The notes beneath the pieces are model-generated. The model searched no databases and was not told the DNA's origin. It was given only the letters and a program-made list of their open reading frames with translations. Of a stretch of DNA of 64,000 nt, positions 34,131-48,615 are shown piece after piece. Made by a program: the position numbers and the translations under genes. The DNA comes from Escherichia phage arall, in sequence record MN850584.1. One strand, written 5' to 3'. Positions within the stretch are counted from its first letter, which is position 1; each line of letters starts with the position of its first letter.

Positions 34131-34330
34131 TTATTTAAAGTTTTTACAGATTTTTGGATACAAATTTTGAAAATGAAAAGTTCAAGTTTGGTCAAAATTA
34201 TTTAAAGTTTTTGTACGTATTTCTATCCAGATTTTGAAAATGAAAACTTCAATTTTTTAAAAATTCCCCAGTTTATTTAAAGTTTTTTTGCCTTTTTCCG
34301 TAGAAAAATCAAAAATGAAAAGTTCAATTT
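34131..34330. repeat. Three iteron-like direct repeats (period about 66-75 bp)
   Basis: Each unit has TTATTTAAAGTTTTT followed by (A)TTTTGAAAATGAAAAGTTCAA-like motif (34164-34185, 34231-34252, 34308-34327). Confidence 0.6.
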
Positions 34331-34350
34331 CGTGTTTTTATGGGTGTGCG

Positions 34351-34412
34351 GATGATAATCATTCTCACTAAGAGAATGAGAATCATTAGCAAATGAGAAT
34401 TTTTCTCATTTA
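34351..34412. promoter_or_regulatory. Nested palindromes including two Fur-box-like sites
   Basis: GATGATAATCATTCTCAC and GAGAATGAGAATCATTAGC resemble the Fur consensus GATAATGATAATCATTATC; plus perfect palindrome AAATGAGAA-TTT-TTCTCATTT. Confidence 0.4.
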
Positions 34413-34429
34413 GAGAATAACGCGCAGGG

Positions 34430-34641
34430 GTGGTGTTTGTCTCGCGCTCCCGTGTCCCCTCGCCATACAATAAGAATAGCATAACCAACAACAAAAGCAA
34501 GCGATTATTTTTATCTTTACATTTCTTTACAAATTTATTTTAGACGAGCTACCGGCGATCAACCTTCCAACCAGTGCCCCCTGGTATGTTAGCCCCGCCT
34601 TTACGCCGTGGGGGTGGCGTTTCCTCTTCTGTATGTAAAAC
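34430..34641 (-). ncRNA. Candidate structured non-coding RNA downstream of a minus-strand promoter
   Basis: GC-rich segment in AT-rich context, no ORF, directly downstream of TTGACA-17-TATACT; speculative. Confidence 0.2.
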
Positions 34642-34670
34642 AGTATAAGCCCGATCCCTGGGCTTGTCAA
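34642..34670 (-). promoter_or_regulatory. Sigma70-like promoter (TTGACA-17-TATACT), minus strand
   Basis: Consensus -35 and near-consensus -10; spacer contains GC hairpin AAGCCC-AGGGATC-GGGCTT. Confidence 0.45.
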
Positions 34671-34672
34671 GA

Positions 34673-34939
34673 TTATTTTTTGTTTTCTTGCCAGGATAGG
34701 ACACCTAACCAAAAATACATGTCGCCCCGCGCCCCTGGCGGGATCTTGCTTTCCCCGCCGCCACTGCAAGCCCATAGATAACCATTTACGAACGTATCAA
34801 AGTGATCTATCTCTTCCACCTTATGATTGCCCAGGTTGAGAACGGTTTCAACCTTTAAGCCCGTTGCGCTTGCTACCTGGTGCACCGTGCCGCCTTGCCA
34901 GCCCAATGAGTGCATGAGGTGTAAAGTAGTATTTGTCAT
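34673..34939 (-). CDS. Hypothetical protein (88 aa) in GC-rich island
   Basis: ATG with AAAGGGCG SD-like sequence; own promoter and 5' hairpin upstream; local GC content higher than surroundings. Confidence 0.5.
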   Translation of the reverse strand: MTNTTLHLMHSLGWQGGTVHQVASATGLKVETVLNLGNHKVEEIDHFDTFVNGYLWACSGGGESKIPPGARGDMYFWLGVLSWQENKK

Positions 34940-43987: not shown

Positions 43988-44001
43988 ATAACATTCCATA
44001 C

Positions 44002-44029
44002 AAGGGCGCACAAAGCGCCCTTTCTTTTT
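44002..44029 (+). terminator. Rho-independent terminator
   Basis: AAGGGCGC-ACAAA-GCGCCCTTTCTTTTT. Confidence 0.65.
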
Positions 44030-44233
44030 ACCTCAATAAAGATGATAGCTTTTACCTATCAAAAACGTTCACCGAAAAAAGTGAATAGATCGCGGTATCG
44101 AGCTAATCAAGGAGCAGATGAATAACCATACCATGAAGATCATAAGGCGCTTACAACGTGTTTTAGACCGCTTATTTTTAATTTCTTCATGCAACTATCT
44201 GGCAAAAACAGCCTTTTTCTTGTCTTTCCTCTT

Positions 44234-44250
44234 AAATGATAATCATTCTT
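44234..44250. promoter_or_regulatory. Fur-box-like site
   Basis: AAATGATAATCATTCTT; core AATGATAATCATT matches Fur consensus. Confidence 0.35.
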
Positions 44251-44290
44251 ATTTATAGCTGATTATTTATGCAATAAACTGCATAATTCA

Positions 44291-44308
44291 ATAATGATAA
44301 TCATTCTT
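44291..44308. promoter_or_regulatory. Fur-box-like site
   Basis: ATAATGATAATCATTCTT. Confidence 0.35.
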
Positions 44309-44329
44309 AACTTATGACCATCTAACCTA

Positions 44330-44640
44330 TAAAATAATAAGTTATCTAACTAAATTAAAACTAATTATCTTACTTTTATTTATAACTTACTGTTACTATC
44401 TCATTGATAACCTTATATTAAACAACAATAACTAATATAAATCATTACTAAGCTAACTATAATCTATCTAACCCTTAAAACTACAACTATAATCTATCGA
44501 ATTGTTGCACAAAGTAACTATTAAATTGTTAGTAACATTGCTAAATAATTAATATCCTATCTATTTATGATCTAATCTTTACCTTCCTATTTATTACCTA
44601 ACTAATCATTTCATACAGTAATCATTGCATACAGTAACTA
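44330..44640. repeat. G-depleted AT-rich repeat tract
   Basis: Plus strand almost lacks G; repeated CTAACT/AACTATAATCTATC (44454-44467, 44486-44499) and AATCATT-CATACAGTAA (44605-44640) motifs. Confidence 0.5.
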
Positions 44641-44676
44641 TGACAAGAAATATAATTCGCAAGCGTATCATTAGCA

Positions 44677-44845
44677 GCCTATGCCGGACACATAGGCGGC
44701 TAATATTAACGCAACTACACACCCCACATAATAACCATCGGTGATGGTTATTATTTGTGTTTATGTAGCTTGCAACAATTGCAAGCGCAACAATATACAT
44801 GGTATATTGTATTCCCTTACATTGTTGCGGTGCGTTAATATTAGC
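44677..44845. repeat. Cluster of perfect palindromes flanked by an 18-bp inverted repeat
   Basis: Hairpin GCCTATG-ccggaca-CATAGGC (44677-44697); flanking IR GGCTAATATTAACGCAAC / GTTGCG(gtgc)GTTAATATTAGC; internal palindromes ATAACCATC-ggt-GATGGTTAT (44731-44751), CTTGCAA-caa-TTGCAAG (44769-44785), CAATATAC-atg-GTATATTG (44791-44809). Confidence 0.6.
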
Positions 44846-45112
44846 TAATGTTTAGAACATTGGCTATAATATAAGCTGCATATAATAAGCTATACAATAA
44901 TAAACATGGTGAATAATGACCCTGATGATCATAATGCGCCACCCTCCAGGGGGCGCTATGTGTACACAAAAAATCTTTCTTGTCAAGAAAATATTAACAC
45001 TATTGCGCAAAATTATTTACAACTGAATAGATGATTTTTCATACTATTGCCCCTATAACATACCTCATTTGTTGAGCCTACTTTCTTAAAAGCGCAATAA
45101 ATCAGAATTATC

Positions 45113-45141
45113 TTGATTTTTAGGGCGTTTTATAGTATAGA
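45113..45141 (+). promoter_or_regulatory. Candidate promoter (TTGATT-17-TATAGA) with Fur box at predicted start site
   Basis: Weak hexamers; Fur-like 19-mer immediately downstream. Confidence 0.25.
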
Positions 45142-45147
45142 AAATAT

Positions 45148-45166
45148 GCAAATGATAATCATTATC
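45148..45166. promoter_or_regulatory. Fur-box-like operator (best match)
   Basis: GCAAATGATAATCATTATC vs Fur consensus GATAATGATAATCATTATC, 17/19. Confidence 0.45.
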
Positions 45167-45330
45167 AGCTATCTTCCACGGGTGGCACTATTTCACGCCA
45201 GATCATTTCATTTGGCAAGGTGTATATAGATGTTTAGACTTGCCAAGCCATTGATTTACTTAGAATTTATCTGTTTTGTTGTGAGTAGTACCTTTCTTGC
45301 TTAGAAAATAATCAAAAGTCTTATAAGTCA

Positions 45331-45365
45331 TTGAATGATAATGCAAATGATAATTATTCTCATTG
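45331..45365 (+). promoter_or_regulatory. Candidate promoter overlapped by tandem GATAAT Fur-like repeats
   Basis: TTGAATGATAATGCAAATGATAATTATTCTCATTG; -35-like TTGAAT, AT-rich -10 region. Confidence 0.35.
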
Positions 45366-45445
45366 ATATTTGAGGGGGACGGTCGGCAGAAATCGGGGGG
45401 CGCTGAAAATCGCGTTAAGCACCTCTCGCAAGCGAGCAGTGTTTT
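45366..45445 (+). ncRNA. Candidate small RNA (about 80 nt) between Fur-like operator and terminator-like hairpin
   Basis: GC-rich segment with no ORF, ending in CACCTCTCGC-AA-GCGAGCAGTG hairpin followed by TTTT (45420-45445); speculative. Confidence 0.25.
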
Positions 45446-45809
45446 GCGGCAAGTTATTGATATTATTGACTTTACGCTTATGAAAAGGGGGTGTGTCGAA
45501 ATAAATCGGGTATACCGGAAAATTTTTGTGGCATAGATATTTATTTGTCTATATTATGTACAAAGGGGTGTATTAAAAATAATAGGTATATATAGAATAA
45601 TTGATAGGGAAATCCTATACTAAATCCTTCATTAATGATGTTCCTATGTTGCTGTTCTTGTAACAGATGAAAAGACGCTATATGATGTGTGGCATGAGAC
45701 GTAAATTTATAAGATGCAAATAATGCTTGCATTGAATAGAAATGTCTATACACTGTGTTTCATAAGATATGCAATATCGCGCATAACAAACTACTAATGA
45801 GAGGTGTAA

Positions 45810-46127
45810 ATGAGAACCTTAGCTTTGTATATTGATCCTCACTCCATTCGAGAAATGCGAGATGTACAACAGGATTACGAATTCTACCCAGAAATTTGTG
45901 AACGCTATGAAACTATTCTTAGTTCTGTAGAAGATCCAGATACTAGTGAAACAGGTGCTTCCCACTTACTGTGGATGTTGAATGAAATTCAGGATGTGTG
46001 TAATGGTATGTCTGAAACCAAACACCATCGTTGGCTAGGCTATATTCAGGGTGTTATGGTTATGAAAAACCTTATTACAGTGAACGATGAACGTAATGCT
46101 ACACGCCCCGTCTTTAATGGAGCATAA
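45810..46127 (+). CDS. Hypothetical protein
   Basis: 105 aa ORF, ATG with GAGAGG SD. Confidence 0.55.
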   Translation: MRTLALYIDPHSIREMRDVQQDYEFYPEICERYETILSSVEDPDTSETGASHLLWMLNEIQDVCNGMSETKHHRWLGYIQGVMVMKNLITVNDERNATRPVFNGA

Positions 46128-46128
46128 C

Positions 46129-46344
46129 ATGAAAAGCATTCAGGTGTGTATTGAAAATAATTGTGGTTATCTGGGATTGACACACGTTGCTTTCCCTCTT
46201 ATGTTAGATGCCGATATCGCTTACAGCGGAGTTGCTTATGTGTCATTCAAGACAATGAGCCAAGTACCTGGCTGGAAGTGGGGAGTAGTTGATGTTGTTG
46301 AAGGAGAAGATTATGTTTTCCTTCCACACGAATATACTGTTTAA
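46129..46344 (+). CDS. Hypothetical protein
   Basis: ATG at 46129 with GGAG upstream. Confidence 0.5.
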   Translation: MKSIQVCIENNCGYLGLTHVAFPLMLDADIAYSGVAYVSFKTMSQVPGWKWGVVDVVEGEDYVFLPHEYTV

Positions 46345-48390: not shown

Positions 48391-48615
48391 ATGGTAAAAC
48401 GTCTGGAATGGGATGCGTGTACTGCTCACGCTTGCCACTGTGATATTGTTGAAGATCCTAATGGAGAGATGGTGTATTATGAAGATTACGAAGCATTGCA
48501 CAATGCTGTGATTGCTTTACTGGATGATATTAGCTCACGCTATCCAGGACAACAATTCACGTGTCCACATATCCAACTATTAGCCGAACTTACGGAGTAT
48601 CCAAGTGTTCCATAA
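48391..48615 (+). CDS. Hypothetical protein
   Basis: 74 aa ORF. Confidence 0.5.
   Translation: MVKRLEWDACTAHACHCDIVEDPNGEMVYYEDYEALHNAVIALLDDISSRYPGQQFTCPHIQLLAELTEYPSVP

What the first reader, a model, noticed from the sequence alone, without database searches (positions are those of the whole stretch)
45113..45445. Fur-box-like operators and a candidate Fur-controlled small RNA
Several sites closely match the enterobacterial Fur box (GATAATGATAATCATTATC): GCAAATGATAATCATTATC at 45148 (17/19), tandem GATAAT hexamers at 45333-45361, and more at 44234, 44291 and 34351-34390. The 45333 site overlaps a promoter-like TTGAAT/AT-rich -10 region and is followed by an ORF-free, GC-rich segment of about 80 nt ending in a hairpin plus TTTT. 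This is the architecture of a Fur-repressed small RNA, which would suggest iron-responsive control or Fur titration by the phage.
Basis: partly seen in the sequence, partly recalled or inferred. Interest (0 to 1): 0.65.

Follow-up and report, generated by a model that had tools for sequence, protein, structure and literature searches.

The report
Fur-type operators in a phage terminal repeat
The flagged stretch is the 343-bp repeat that sits at both ends of this virulent coliphage's DNA, and it carries real, conserved copies of the binding site for the host's iron-sensing repressor Fur; the proposed small RNA there is not supported, but a Fur-box-fronted structured RNA candidate lies 11 kb away.

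Summary
The motifs are real. The core AATGATAATCATT occurs 10 times at up to 1 mismatch against 0.5 expected, and 45153-45167 is a perfect 7-1-7 Fur palindrome.

The interval is not an sRNA locus. It is the phage's 343-bp direct terminal repeat (window 45075-45417), as mapped in the relatives UAB_1 and BME3. The proposed RNA (45366-45445) straddles the repeat boundary, folds no better than shuffled sequence (z +1.1), matches no Rfam family, and its hairpin and T-run are not conserved.

The boxes match the in vivo E. coli Fur motif TGAnAATnATTcTCA at 12-13 of 13 positions. They cluster only in three non-coding regions and are retained across genera despite sequence turnover. The perfect 19-bp palindrome of distant relatives (absent from this window, which has 1-mismatch versions) recurs in more than 120 viral contigs, almost all unrelated (control palindrome: 0). 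T5-like phages carry related boxes in their terminal repeats. The window's site-1 15-mer recurs 36 bp from phage lambda's right end. This points to a shared host factor, Fur, not a private phage protein.

At 34348-34630 a box array sits at a fixed distance upstream of a ~200-nt element found in 238 phage records, with covariation-supported helices. That is the better candidate for a Fur-controlled phage RNA. Fur binding and iron response remain untested.

The parts
45075..45417 (.). Direct terminal repeat (DTR), 343 bp. It is present once in this permuted or collapsed assembly.
   Evidence: It aligns end to end with both annotated terminal repeats of Salmonella phage UAB_1. BME3 has a 342-bp DTR by PhageTerm. 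Several records start at window 45075.
45066..45085 (+). Left DTR boundary motif TTTGTTG^AGCCTAC (cut between 45074 and 45075).
   Evidence: TGTTG^AGC(A/C)C is conserved in all 7 aligned genera, and the phi1_175008 record starts at the same AGC. The motif is not found elsewhere in the genome beyond chance.
45401..45446 (+). Right DTR boundary block GAAAATCGCGTTA^AGCACCTCTCGCAAGCGAG (cut between 45417 and 45418), including the weak hairpin 45419-45442 and TTTTG.
   Evidence: Window 45401-45432 is 76.9% identical to 5 distant relatives against 38-52% for neighbouring segments. It shares GTTR^AGC with the left boundary. The hairpin is -8.3 kcal/mol, is not called a terminator and is not conserved.
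45148..45168 (+). Fur-type box, DTR site 1. The core TGATAATCATTATCA lies at 45153-45167.
   Evidence: It matches the consensus at 17/19, is a perfect 7-1-7 palindrome, and matches the ChIP-exo motif at 12/13. The identical 15-mer lies at lambda 48452-48466. It is kept in Justusliebig- and Phapecoctavirus and in Tr1. In Klebsiella phages a new box lies 27 bp away.
45331..45372 (+). Fur-type array, DTR site 2. It reads TTGAAT-GATAAT-GCAAAT-[TGATAATTATTCTCA 45348-45362]-TTGATATTTG. Possible sigma70 elements are TTGAAT-18-TATTCT (45331-45360) or GCAAAT-16-GATATT (45343-45370).
   Evidence: It matches the ChIP-exo motif at 13/13. The block is 76.8% identical to distant relatives, tied for highest in the DTR. 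In phiWec190 the site matches the consensus at 17/19. The promoter score is modest, 8.6.
45373..45417 (+).
   Evidence: It is 55% G+C over 45366-45445. Identity to distant relatives is 52% for 45373-45400. Folding gives z +1.12 and there is no Rfam hit.
44232..44309 (+). Two Fur-type boxes (cores 44237-44251 and 44295-44309, both TGATAATCATTCTTA), 58 bp apart, about 0.8 kb before the DTR.
   Evidence: Each is 12/13. The equivalent sites in UAB_1 lie at 146585 and 146643.
34348..34418 (+). Locus-2 Fur-type array with boxes at 34353-34367 (13/13), 34377-34391 (11/13) and 34394-34408 (12/13), followed by a -10-like GAGAAT at 34413-34418.
   Evidence: Relatives have 4-5 boxes. In other genera the boxes are spaced exactly 29 bp apart, and the proximal box lies 142-148 bp (154-155 bp in Justusliebig- and Phapecoctavirus; about 196 bp in TH18) upstream of CTACCGGCGAT.
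34425..34630 (+). Candidate conserved structured RNA (~200 nt). It has a single-stranded CUACCGGCGAUCAACCUUCC (34549-34568), helix H1 (34568-34588), S1 (34593-96 with 34611-14), S2 (34604-07 with 34616-19) and a T-rich tail (34620-34630).
   Evidence: The element is present in 238 phage records. One pair covaries strictly, A-T x13 and G-C x11. The stated structure is 92.8% paired against 40-56% when slid, 5 pairs change on both sides against 1.7 expected, and 0 of 500 shuffles reach the observed values. There is no Rfam match and no E. coli homolog. The ends of the RNA are inferred.

Best explanation
The flagged interval is the phage's 343-bp direct terminal repeat, bounded by a shared GTTR^AGC cut motif.

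Inside it are two operators of the host iron repressor Fur. They belong to a set of about eight such boxes that occur only in three non-coding regions of the genome: the terminal repeat, a site about 0.8 kb before it, and an array at 34.35 kb.

Proposed mechanism:
1. In an iron-replete host, Fe2+-Fur dimers bind these 15-19-bp palindromes.
2. The palindromes lie over the -35/-10 spacer of weak sigma70-type promoters, so bound Fur represses them. In iron-starved hosts the repression is lifted.
3. At 34.35 kb the controlled transcript is a conserved ~200-nt structured RNA.
4. In the terminal repeat the controlled transcript would be the leftmost rightward transcript. It reads out of the repeat towards the first early genes and is not a discrete small RNA.
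5. As phage DNA multiplies, the boxes would also soak up Fur, as in a Fur titration assay.

Shown here: the repeat and its boundaries, the motif identity, its conservation and its distribution.
Inferred: Fur binding, promoter activity, the direction of regulation and titration.
For: The interval is the terminal repeat.

The motif is far above chance: (12 core matches in the UAB_1 genome against 0-3 in simulations).

The motif matches Fur: 17/19 to the consensus and a perfect 7-1-7 unit; 12-13 of 13 to the ChIP-exo motif TGAnAATnATTcTCA of PMC10164565. The asymmetry is the same as in that motif, with n at position 4 and c at position 12, and is uncompensated in 19 of 46 distinct boxes.

The boxes are under selection:
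- The site-2 block is 76.8% identical across genera against 38-52% for its flanks.
- In Klebsiella phages site 1 is lost but a new box appears 27 bp away.
- At locus 2 the proximal box keeps a near-fixed distance in 25 copies from 8 or more genera.

A host factor is more likely than a phage factor:
- The phage has no Fur homolog.
- The exact 19-bp palindrome occurs in more than 120 viral contigs; of the 80 loci examined, only 7 (6 contigs) show any similarity to UAB_1, all short, and a matched control palindrome gives 0.
- Four 12/13 boxes lie within 1 kb of the end of T5-like terminal repeats.
- The identical 15-mer lies 36 bp from lambda's right end, and a box lies 36 bp from the DLP12 cos site. 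Chen et al. list a strong predicted Fur cluster there (nohB) and verified by gel shift the one upstream of the related nohA gene (PMC2189734).

Promoter overlap is typical of Fur: 83% of E. coli Fur clusters overlap sigma70 promoters. In Vequintavirinae the geometry is TTGAAT-18-CAGAAT with the box filling the spacer.
Against: - There is no binding or expression data for any of these phages.
- The promoter elements around the terminal-repeat boxes are weak (PWM 8.6; -35 GCAAAT or TTGAAT), and promoter-like sites in the region are not more frequent than in shuffles (14 against 11.7).
- Citrobacter phage Tr1 lacks the site-2 box.
- Stronger promoters for the early genes lie elsewhere (45658; 35056, 35233 and 35316), so Fur control would affect only a few transcripts.
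- A regular 29-bp array next to AT-rich tandem repeats also resembles an iteron origin.
- The recurrence of boxes near genome ends in lambda, T5-like and these phages suggests a role at DNA ends that transcriptional repression does not explain.
Confidence: 0.55

Rival explanations
1. Fur as a host factor acting at phage DNA ends. The boxes recruit abundant host Fur to the terminal region. Fur would then serve as an architectural or protective protein for terminase cutting, for entry of the first-injected end, for circularisation or for end protection, as IHF does at lambda cos or as proposed for DnaA boxes in the T5 repeat. Transcriptional control would not be the main role.
For: Boxes lie near genome ends in three unrelated groups. 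Here they lie 78 bp and about 56-70 bp from the repeat boundaries. In T5-like phages four boxes lie within 1 kb of the left end, beyond the last gene. In lambda and DLP12 a box lies 36 bp from the cohesive end. Host DnaA boxes in the T5 repeat have been proposed to act in injection.
Against: Most boxes in this phage are not at the ends: one set is at 34.35 kb and another about 0.8 kb before the repeat. At 34.35 kb they sit at a fixed distance from an RNA-like element with promoter-like geometry. No experiment links Fur to packaging or injection in any phage, as far as the searched library shows.
Confidence: 0.15
2. Operators or iterons of a phage-encoded DNA-binding protein, such as an early-gene shut-off repressor or a replication initiator, with locus 2 as the origin. 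Their resemblance to Fur boxes would be coincidental.
For: The arrays are regular: 2-5 palindromes spaced 29 bp apart, next to AT-rich tandem repeats. This layout recalls lambda-type iteron origins. Most phage proteins are of unknown function.
Against: Almost all of the viral contigs that carry the exact 19-bp palindrome, and T5-like and lambda phages that carry box variants, are unrelated to this phage and share no evident protein with it. The motif is invariant across two subfamilies and equals the host factor's in vivo motif, including its asymmetry. GC skew gives no sign of an origin.
Confidence: 0.12
3. One reading: a discrete Fur-repressed small RNA of about 80 nt transcribed from 45366 to the hairpin and T-run at 45445.
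For: A Fur-type box overlaps TTGAAT-18-TATTCT. A GC-rich ORF-poor segment and a hairpin with TTTTG follow.
Against: The segment crosses the repeat boundary at 45417, so at the right genome end it would lack its terminator. It folds worse than shuffles (z +1.12, 173 of 200 shuffles fold as well). It has no Rfam match. The terminator scan finds nothing there. The body is 52% conserved, and the hairpin and T-run are lost in Klebsiella and Phapecoctavirus relatives.
Confidence: 0.07
4. The palindrome acts in RNA, as a hairpin AAUGAGA-AUCAU-UCUCAUU near the 5' end of transcripts (a stabiliser, a processing site or a protein-binding site), and not as a DNA operator.
For: In several unrelated viral contigs the palindrome lies just downstream of a consensus promoter (TTGACA-17-TAAAAT-CGGCGCC..CCA-[P]-TGG), and GC-rich flanks extend the dyad.
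Against: In this phage superfamily 19 of 46 distinct boxes have T at position 4 opposite C at position 12. That mismatch is never compensated, unlike true RNA helices nearby. In these phages the boxes lie upstream of the -10-like element.
Confidence: 0.05

Closest known systems
E. coli Fur boxes (19-bp consensus; 7-1-7 unit of Baichoo and Helmann; ChIP-exo motif TGAnAATnATTcTCA)
   Same: The sequence matches at 17/19, 15/15 and 13/13, with the same position-4/12 asymmetry. The boxes occur in clusters and overlap promoter-like elements.
   Different: They lie in a virulent phage genome, mostly as single-dimer palindromes spaced 24-58 bp apart rather than 6-bp-overlapping hexamer arrays. No iron gene lies downstream. 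Binding is untested.
Fur clusters beside lambdoid cos sites (upstream of nohA and nohB in the Qin and DLP12 prophages, Chen et al. 2007; the same box in lambda)
   Same: A Fur box lies tens of bases from a phage genome end, and the site-1 15-mer is identical in lambda. Fur binding was verified by gel shift and in vivo selection for nohA.
   Different: Those are temperate cos phages with 12-nt cohesive ends, not a terminal-repeat myovirus. Their function is also unknown.
RyhB and PrrF-type Fur-repressed small RNAs
   Same: A Fur box at the promoter precedes a short non-coding RNA that ends in a hairpin and U-tail. This architecture is matched by the 34425-34630 element.
   Different: There is no sequence or Rfam similarity and no host homolog. 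The element is about 200 nt and phage-encoded. The flagged 45366-45445 segment fails the structural and terminator criteria.
T5 long terminal repeat with host DnaA boxes (proposed injection stop signal, Davison 2020)
   Same: Conserved binding sites for a host DNA-binding protein lie inside a terminal repeat of a virulent coliphage. T5-like repeats also carry Fur-type boxes.
   Different: The T5 repeat is about 10 kb and contains genes; here it is 343 bp and non-coding. The host protein differs, and the model is unproven.
Short direct terminal repeats of T7-type packaging
   Same: A repeat of a few hundred bp lies at both ends with defined cut sites, and a promoter may lie within or near the repeat.
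   Different: The phage lineage and terminase are unrelated. The shared GTTR^AGC boundary motif and the host-factor boxes are not features of T7.

Membership tests
Fur box (operator of enterobacterial Fur) | Match to the 19-bp consensus GATAATGATAATCATTATC at the level of verified sites | tested here: met
   17/19 at 45148, and 14-16/19 at 45343, 44290, 34348 and 34372. Five matches with up to 3 mismatches against 0.04 expected.
Fur box (operator of enterobacterial Fur) | A 7-1-7 inverted heptamer matching the in vivo ChIP-exo motif TGAnAATnATTcTCA | tested here: met
   45153-45167 is a perfect 7-1-7 unit. 45348 and 34353 match at 13/13, and the others at 11-12/13.
Fur box (operator of enterobacterial Fur) | Overlap with the -35/-10 region of a sigma70 promoter | tested here: inconclusive
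   Candidate elements exist (TTGAAT-18-TATTCT; TTGAAT-18-CAGAAT in relatives). They are weak, and promoter-like sites are not enriched over shuffles.
Fur box (operator of enterobacterial Fur) | Fur binds the site, and expression responds to iron or to fur deletion | not testable with these tools
   This needs EMSA or footprinting, ChIP, and RNA-seq with and without chelator or in a delta-fur host.
Fur-repressed small RNA (RyhB type) at 45366-45445 | A discrete transcript ended by an intrinsic terminator that is conserved in relatives | tested here: not met
   No terminator is called there. The hairpin is -8.3 kcal/mol, lies outside the repeat, and is not conserved with its T-run.
Fur-repressed small RNA (RyhB type) at 45366-45445 | Stable or conserved secondary structure, or homology to a known sRNA family | tested here: not met
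   z = +1.12 against shuffles. No Rfam match at E up to 1. The body is 52% conserved.
Short direct terminal repeat | The same sequence is present at both physical ends of virion DNA, with defined boundaries | tested here: met
   Shown for close relatives: UAB_1 positions 1-343 equal 147427-147769 and align to window 45075-45417. BME3 has 342 bp by PhageTerm. The termini of this very phage were not measured.
Structured non-coding RNA (new family candidate) at 34425-34630 | Conserved helices supported by compensatory changes | tested here: met
   92.8% paired against 40-56% when slid, 5 pairs with changes on both sides against 1.7 expected, and 0 of 500 shuffles reach the observed values; one pair is A-T x13 and G-C x11 with none broken.
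Structured non-coding RNA (new family candidate) at 34425-34630 | It is actually transcribed, with defined 5' and 3' ends | not testable with these tools
   The ends are inferred from the -10-like GAGAAT (34413-18) and from the CGCC-N7-GGCG hairpin with its T-rich tail.
Iteron-type replication origin | The repeats are specific to the element's own initiator, so the motif is private to the lineage | tested here: not met
   Almost all viral contigs that carry the exact palindrome are unrelated to this phage, and T5-like and lambda phages carry box variants. The regular spacing and adjacent AT-rich repeats are present.

The most novel reading that the evidence does not exclude
Two linked readings remain open.

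1. Perfect Fur operators are a widespread, previously unremarked feature of phage genome ends. They occur in the 343-bp repeat of phi92-like myoviruses, in the first kilobase of T5-like terminal repeats, and 36 bp from lambda's right cohesive end. On this reading host Fur acts at the incoming or packaged DNA end, or couples the start of infection to the host's iron state.

2. A large group of virulent enterobacterial myoviruses (238 records in Stephanstirmvirinae and Vequintavirinae) encodes a Fur-controlled structured small RNA, a new RNA family. Its conserved single-stranded CCACCUUCC stretch, which resembles an anti-Shine-Dalgarno sequence, could reprogram host or phage translation under iron limitation.
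Probability: 0.3. Interest if true: 0.85.

Novelty: new variant of a known kind. Interest (0 to 1): 0.62.

Why it matters
Virulent phages are usually thought to ignore host transcription factors after takeover. Conserved operators of the host iron sensor in a terminal repeat, and in front of a conserved phage RNA, would mean these phages read the host's iron state, which is the dominant nutritional cue in the gut and in infection.

This bears on phage therapy, because several of these phages are therapy candidates and iron limitation is the in vivo norm. It also bears on how phage ribonucleotide reductases, which need iron, are supplied.

The recurrence of Fur boxes beside the ends of lambda, T5-like and phi92-like genomes turns an old, unexplained observation (Fur binding near nohA) into a directly testable question.

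Separately, the work fixes the physical genome ends and a candidate terminase cut motif (GTTR^AGC) for this phage group. It also nominates a new structured RNA family found in 238 genomes.

Tried and rejected
- Rfam, at gathering thresholds on the whole window and at E up to 1 on both loci, found nothing relevant. tRNA scanning found none.
- Folding 45366-45446 showed no excess stability, so I rejected it as a structured RNA.
- The IMG/VR scan with GCAGGNNNNGGTGTTTGTCT returned 53 hits, all unrelated chance matches. That scan was wasted. The 3' anchor pattern worked instead.
- RNAalifold on the 15-sequence alignment gave a weak consensus (-14.3 kcal/mol, covariation -0.22) and chose a helix (TACCGG with CCGGTA) that A7_1 breaks. 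I replaced it with helices found by a covariation scan and checked them with the count of structure pairs.
- The S1 helix has a one-base register shift in pEa56 and A7_1, so the column-based count understates it. A register-free check was only partly clean. The pseudoknot reading remains tentative.
- Cumulative GC skew of UAB_1 follows transcription direction only and gives no origin signal.
- No E. coli homolog of the locus-2 element was found.
- Literature searches found no paper linking Fur to these phages or to T5 repeats.
- I did not build a full Fur weight matrix because no site list was available as text. I used published consensus motifs instead.
- I saw a LexA-like box in the Klebsiella phages but did not pursue it.
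Full report
**1. Identity of the window.** The region 44000-46200 is 94-96% identical to Justusliebigvirus coliphages (alia, Paula, JohannJBalmer and others; Stephanstirmvirinae, phi92-like myoviruses of about 147 kb). It lies in a 1.8-kb non-coding gap. A terminator at 44002-44022 closes one block of small + strand genes, and the next block starts at 45810.

**2.
- The Fur consensus GATAATGATAATCATTATC has 5 matches with up to 3 mismatches, against 0.04 expected.
- The core AATGATAATCATT has 10 matches with up to 1 mismatch, against 0.5 expected.
- 45153-45167 (TGATAATCATTATCA) is a perfect 7-1-7 palindrome.
- The hexamers, the TTGAAT, the GC-rich segment (55% against 37%) and the hairpin with TTTTG (-8.3 kcal/mol) are all present.

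**3. What the interval is.**
- In several records window position 45100 maps to record position 26, and Salmonella phage UAB_1 annotates 343-bp left and right direct terminal repeats there.
- Alignment fixes the repeat at window 45075-45417.
- BME3, another Justusliebigvirus, has a 342-bp repeat by PhageTerm (PMC12210895). UAB_1's short repeat is reported in PMC11350853.
- The finding's coordinates (45113-45445) are therefore essentially the terminal repeat.
- I aligned the region with pEC-M2929 (84% identical), two Klebsiella phages, two Phapecoctavirus and Citrobacter phage Tr1. The conserved blocks are the two boundaries (TGTTG^AGC and GAAAATCGCGTTA^AGCAC, sharing GTTR^AGC), site 1, a central block, and site 2.
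- Identity of the window to the five distant relatives is 67.5% at the left boundary, 65.3% at site 1, 76.8% at site 2 and 76.9% at the right boundary. Intervening segments are 38-52%.
- The boundary motif is not a general genomic motif. I take it as the likely terminase cut signal; this is an inference.

**4. The proposed sRNA is not supported.**
- The segment 45366-45446 folds at -18.6 kcal/mol against -22.0 +/- 3.0 for shuffles (z +1.12).
- It has no Rfam match at E up to 1, and the terminator scan finds nothing there.
- It crosses the repeat boundary, so its hairpin exists only at the left-end copy.
- Its body is poorly conserved, and the hairpin and T-run are lost in Klebsiella and Phapecoctavirus relatives.

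**5. The boxes are a family restricted to three non-coding regions.** In the complete UAB_1 genome, matches of at least 15/19, or core matches, cluster in:
- the repeat (positions 74 and 269, and the right-end copy);
- 146585 and 146643;
- an array at 136041-136140.

Other hits are at chance level; simulations give 0-3. These regions precede the two blocks of small + strand, early-type genes. The window equivalents are 45153 and 45348; 44237 and 44295; and 34353, 34377 and 34394.

**6. The boxes match Fur in sequence.**
- The ChIP-exo motif from nine E. coli strains is TGAnAATnATTcTCA (PMC10164565).
- Window boxes 45348 and 34353 match at 13/13. Boxes 45153, 44237, 44295 and 34394 match at 12/13.
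- Across 46 distinct boxes of this phage superfamily, positions 4 and 12 are G/C (24), T/C (19) or T/A (2). This is the same asymmetry as the motif and is never compensated. That is the behaviour of a protein half-site, not of an RNA stem.
- The phage encodes no Fur or LexA homolog.

**7. The boxes are under selection.**
- Site 2 is kept in all relatives but Tr1, and reaches 17/19 in phiWec190.
- In Klebsiella phages the site-1 sequence is replaced by a CTG-N10-CAG palindrome (LexA-box-like, 14-15 of 20), but a new Fur-type box (TGAGAATCGTTATCA) lies 27 bp downstream. The motif is retained despite sequence turnover.

**8. Locus 2.**
- Downstream of the array at 34348-34408 lies an element found in 238 phage records across Stephanstirmvirinae and Vequintavirinae, including the PVP-SE1, GAP31, CR9 and phiTE lineages.
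- In 25 copies from 8 or more genera, a box of 11-13 of 13 lies 142-148 bp upstream of CTACCGGCGAT (154-155 bp in Justusliebig- and Phapecoctavirus; about 196 bp in TH18). Extra boxes sit exactly 29 bp apart.
- In Vequintavirinae the geometry is TTGAAT-18-CAGAAT with the box filling the spacer, followed by a G-rich start. The FBKp34 record annotates a promoter on that spot.
- The element ends in CGCC-N7-GGCG followed by a T-rich run.
- RNAalifold was weak and chose a helix that one sequence breaks. A covariation scan found a strictly covarying pair, A-T x13 and G-C x11.
- The explicit structure (H1, S1, S2) is 92.8% paired against 40-56% when slid. Five pairs change on both sides against 1.7 in shuffles, and 0 of 500 shuffles reach the observed values.
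- There is no Rfam family and no E. coli homolog.
- I therefore read 34425-34630 (+) as a candidate structured RNA whose promoter carries Fur-type operators. The transcript ends are inferred.

**9. Host factor or phage factor?**
- A composition-matched control palindrome gives 0 hits.
- Of the 80 loci examined, only 7 (6 contigs) show any similarity to UAB_1, all short (37-390 nt). The palindromes sit in intergenic, promoter-adjacent contexts.
- The contigs of 118-121 kb are T5-like phages (248 records), and the context lies inside the annotated left terminal repeat. Tequintavirus SIA3lw has four 12/13 boxes within 1 kb of its left end.
- Chen et al. 2007 list strong Fur clusters upstream of the prophage genes nohA (gel-shift verified) and nohB.
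- In K-12 DLP12 the box TGATAATTATTATCA lies 36 bp from the lambda-type cohesive-end sequence.
- Phage lambda itself has TGATAATCATTATCA, identical to window site 1, ending 36 bp from its right end.
- Unrelated phages sharing one motif argues for a common host protein, Fur, and against a private phage repressor or initiator.

**10. Mechanism.**
- Best supported: Fe2+-Fur binds the boxes and represses a few weak sigma70-type promoters. These are the RNA at 34.4 kb and the leftmost rightward transcript from the repeat. Fur is titrated as a by-product as phage DNA accumulates.
- Fur binding, promoter activity and iron response are all inferred.
- The clustering of boxes near genome ends in three phage groups is not explained by this model. 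It keeps open a role at DNA ends in packaging, entry or protection, by analogy with IHF at cos and with the DnaA boxes proposed for T5.
- An iteron-origin reading of locus 2 is weakened by the motif's presence in unrelated phages. GC skew is uninformative.

**11. Novelty.** Fur boxes, Fur-repressed sRNAs and terminal repeats are all known. I found no paper linking Fur to these phages, to T5 repeats or to a virulent-phage sRNA. I rate the finding a new variant of a known kind, with a testable and more general hypothesis attached.

Noticed in passing
L006 1339-1358 (FKP3) and L007 78-97 (phi1_175008), aligned to window about 45148-45168: In the Klebsiella phages the site-1 slot of the terminal repeat holds a CTG-N10-CAG palindrome (TACTGTTCACTTATACAGTG, matching the LexA/SOS-box consensus at 15/20; 14/20 in phi1_175008). 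A different host global-repressor site may have been swapped in. The window has no comparable LexA-like box outside genes.
   Followed up: partly
window 34150-34330: AT-rich tandem repeats of about 85 bp (TTTTGAAAATGAAAAsTTCAA ... ATTTAAAGTTTTT) lie just upstream of the locus-2 box array. Other genera have different tandem repeats at the same place (for example ACTCGATCGGTTTTTCAAAATCGAAA). They could be enhancer-like or iteron-like; their role is unknown.
   Followed up: no
window 44310-45070: A 760-bp AT-rich non-coding stretch lies between the 44.2-kb boxes and the terminal repeat. It contains short direct repeats (AACTATAATCTATC x2; TAATCATTkCATACAG x2), a 12-bp-stem hairpin with a T-run at 44728-44754 (terminator-like), and perfect 15-nt inverted repeats at 44699-44713 and 44831-44845. 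It could be another non-coding transcript.
   Followed up: no
L006 1121-1265 (FKP3) and L010 1137-1212 (Tr1), upstream of the left repeat boundary: The unit [small GC hairpin]+ATGTTG^AGCAC is repeated 3 times in FKP3 (67-69 bp apart) and 2 times in Tr1. TGTTGAGC also resembles the TGTTGAC -35 of the early promoter reported for Certrevirus (PMC7344957). The FKP3 record also carries a 300-nt segment duplicated at 500-bp spacing at its start, which may be an assembly artefact of the repeat.
   Followed up: partly
IMG/VR loci L148, L151, L155-L158, L099, L100: In unrelated environmental viral contigs the perfect Fur-type palindrome sits just downstream of a consensus promoter and is flanked by GC clamps (TTGACA-17-TAAAAT-CGGCGCCGCCA-[palindrome]-TGGCGGCGCC). 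This gives dyads of up to about 41 bp. It is a distinct recurring module of unknown function.
   Followed up: partly
L213 203-217 (lambda 48452-48466) and L212 1295-1309 (K-12 DLP12, 580594-580608): A perfect Fur box lies 36 bp from the lambda right cohesive end, just upstream of the GGGTCCT element that I recall from memory as cosQ. The same arrangement occurs in DLP12 upstream of nohD.
   Followed up: partly
window 45418-45810 compared with relatives (L001 3234-3969; L003 651-1016): Relatives carry one or two extra small genes (phAPEC8_0019-like) between the terminal repeat and the first early gene. These are absent from this window and from phage alia, so this is a hot spot for gene gain and loss next to the repeat.
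   Followed up: no
window 34673-34939 (- strand): A small conserved gene on the - strand (annotated hypothetical in ESCO5, PVP-SE1, GAP31, UAB_1 gp231 and others) converges on the RNA-like element. It has its own terminator-like hairpin at 34647-34665.
   Followed up: no
L079 (Pectobacterium phage phiTE 39230-40251): phiTE, known for its pseudo-ToxI RNA that defeats ToxIN abortive infection, carries the same box array (247, 284, 313, 342) and the conserved RNA-like element. Experimental tools for phage non-coding RNAs therefore already exist in this family.
   Followed up: no
window 34549-34568: The conserved unpaired stretch CUACCGGCGAUC(C/A)ACCUUCC contains a sequence resembling the anti-Shine-Dalgarno end of 16S rRNA (GAUCACCUCCUUA, recalled from memory). 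It could pair with ribosome-binding sites.
   Followed up: no
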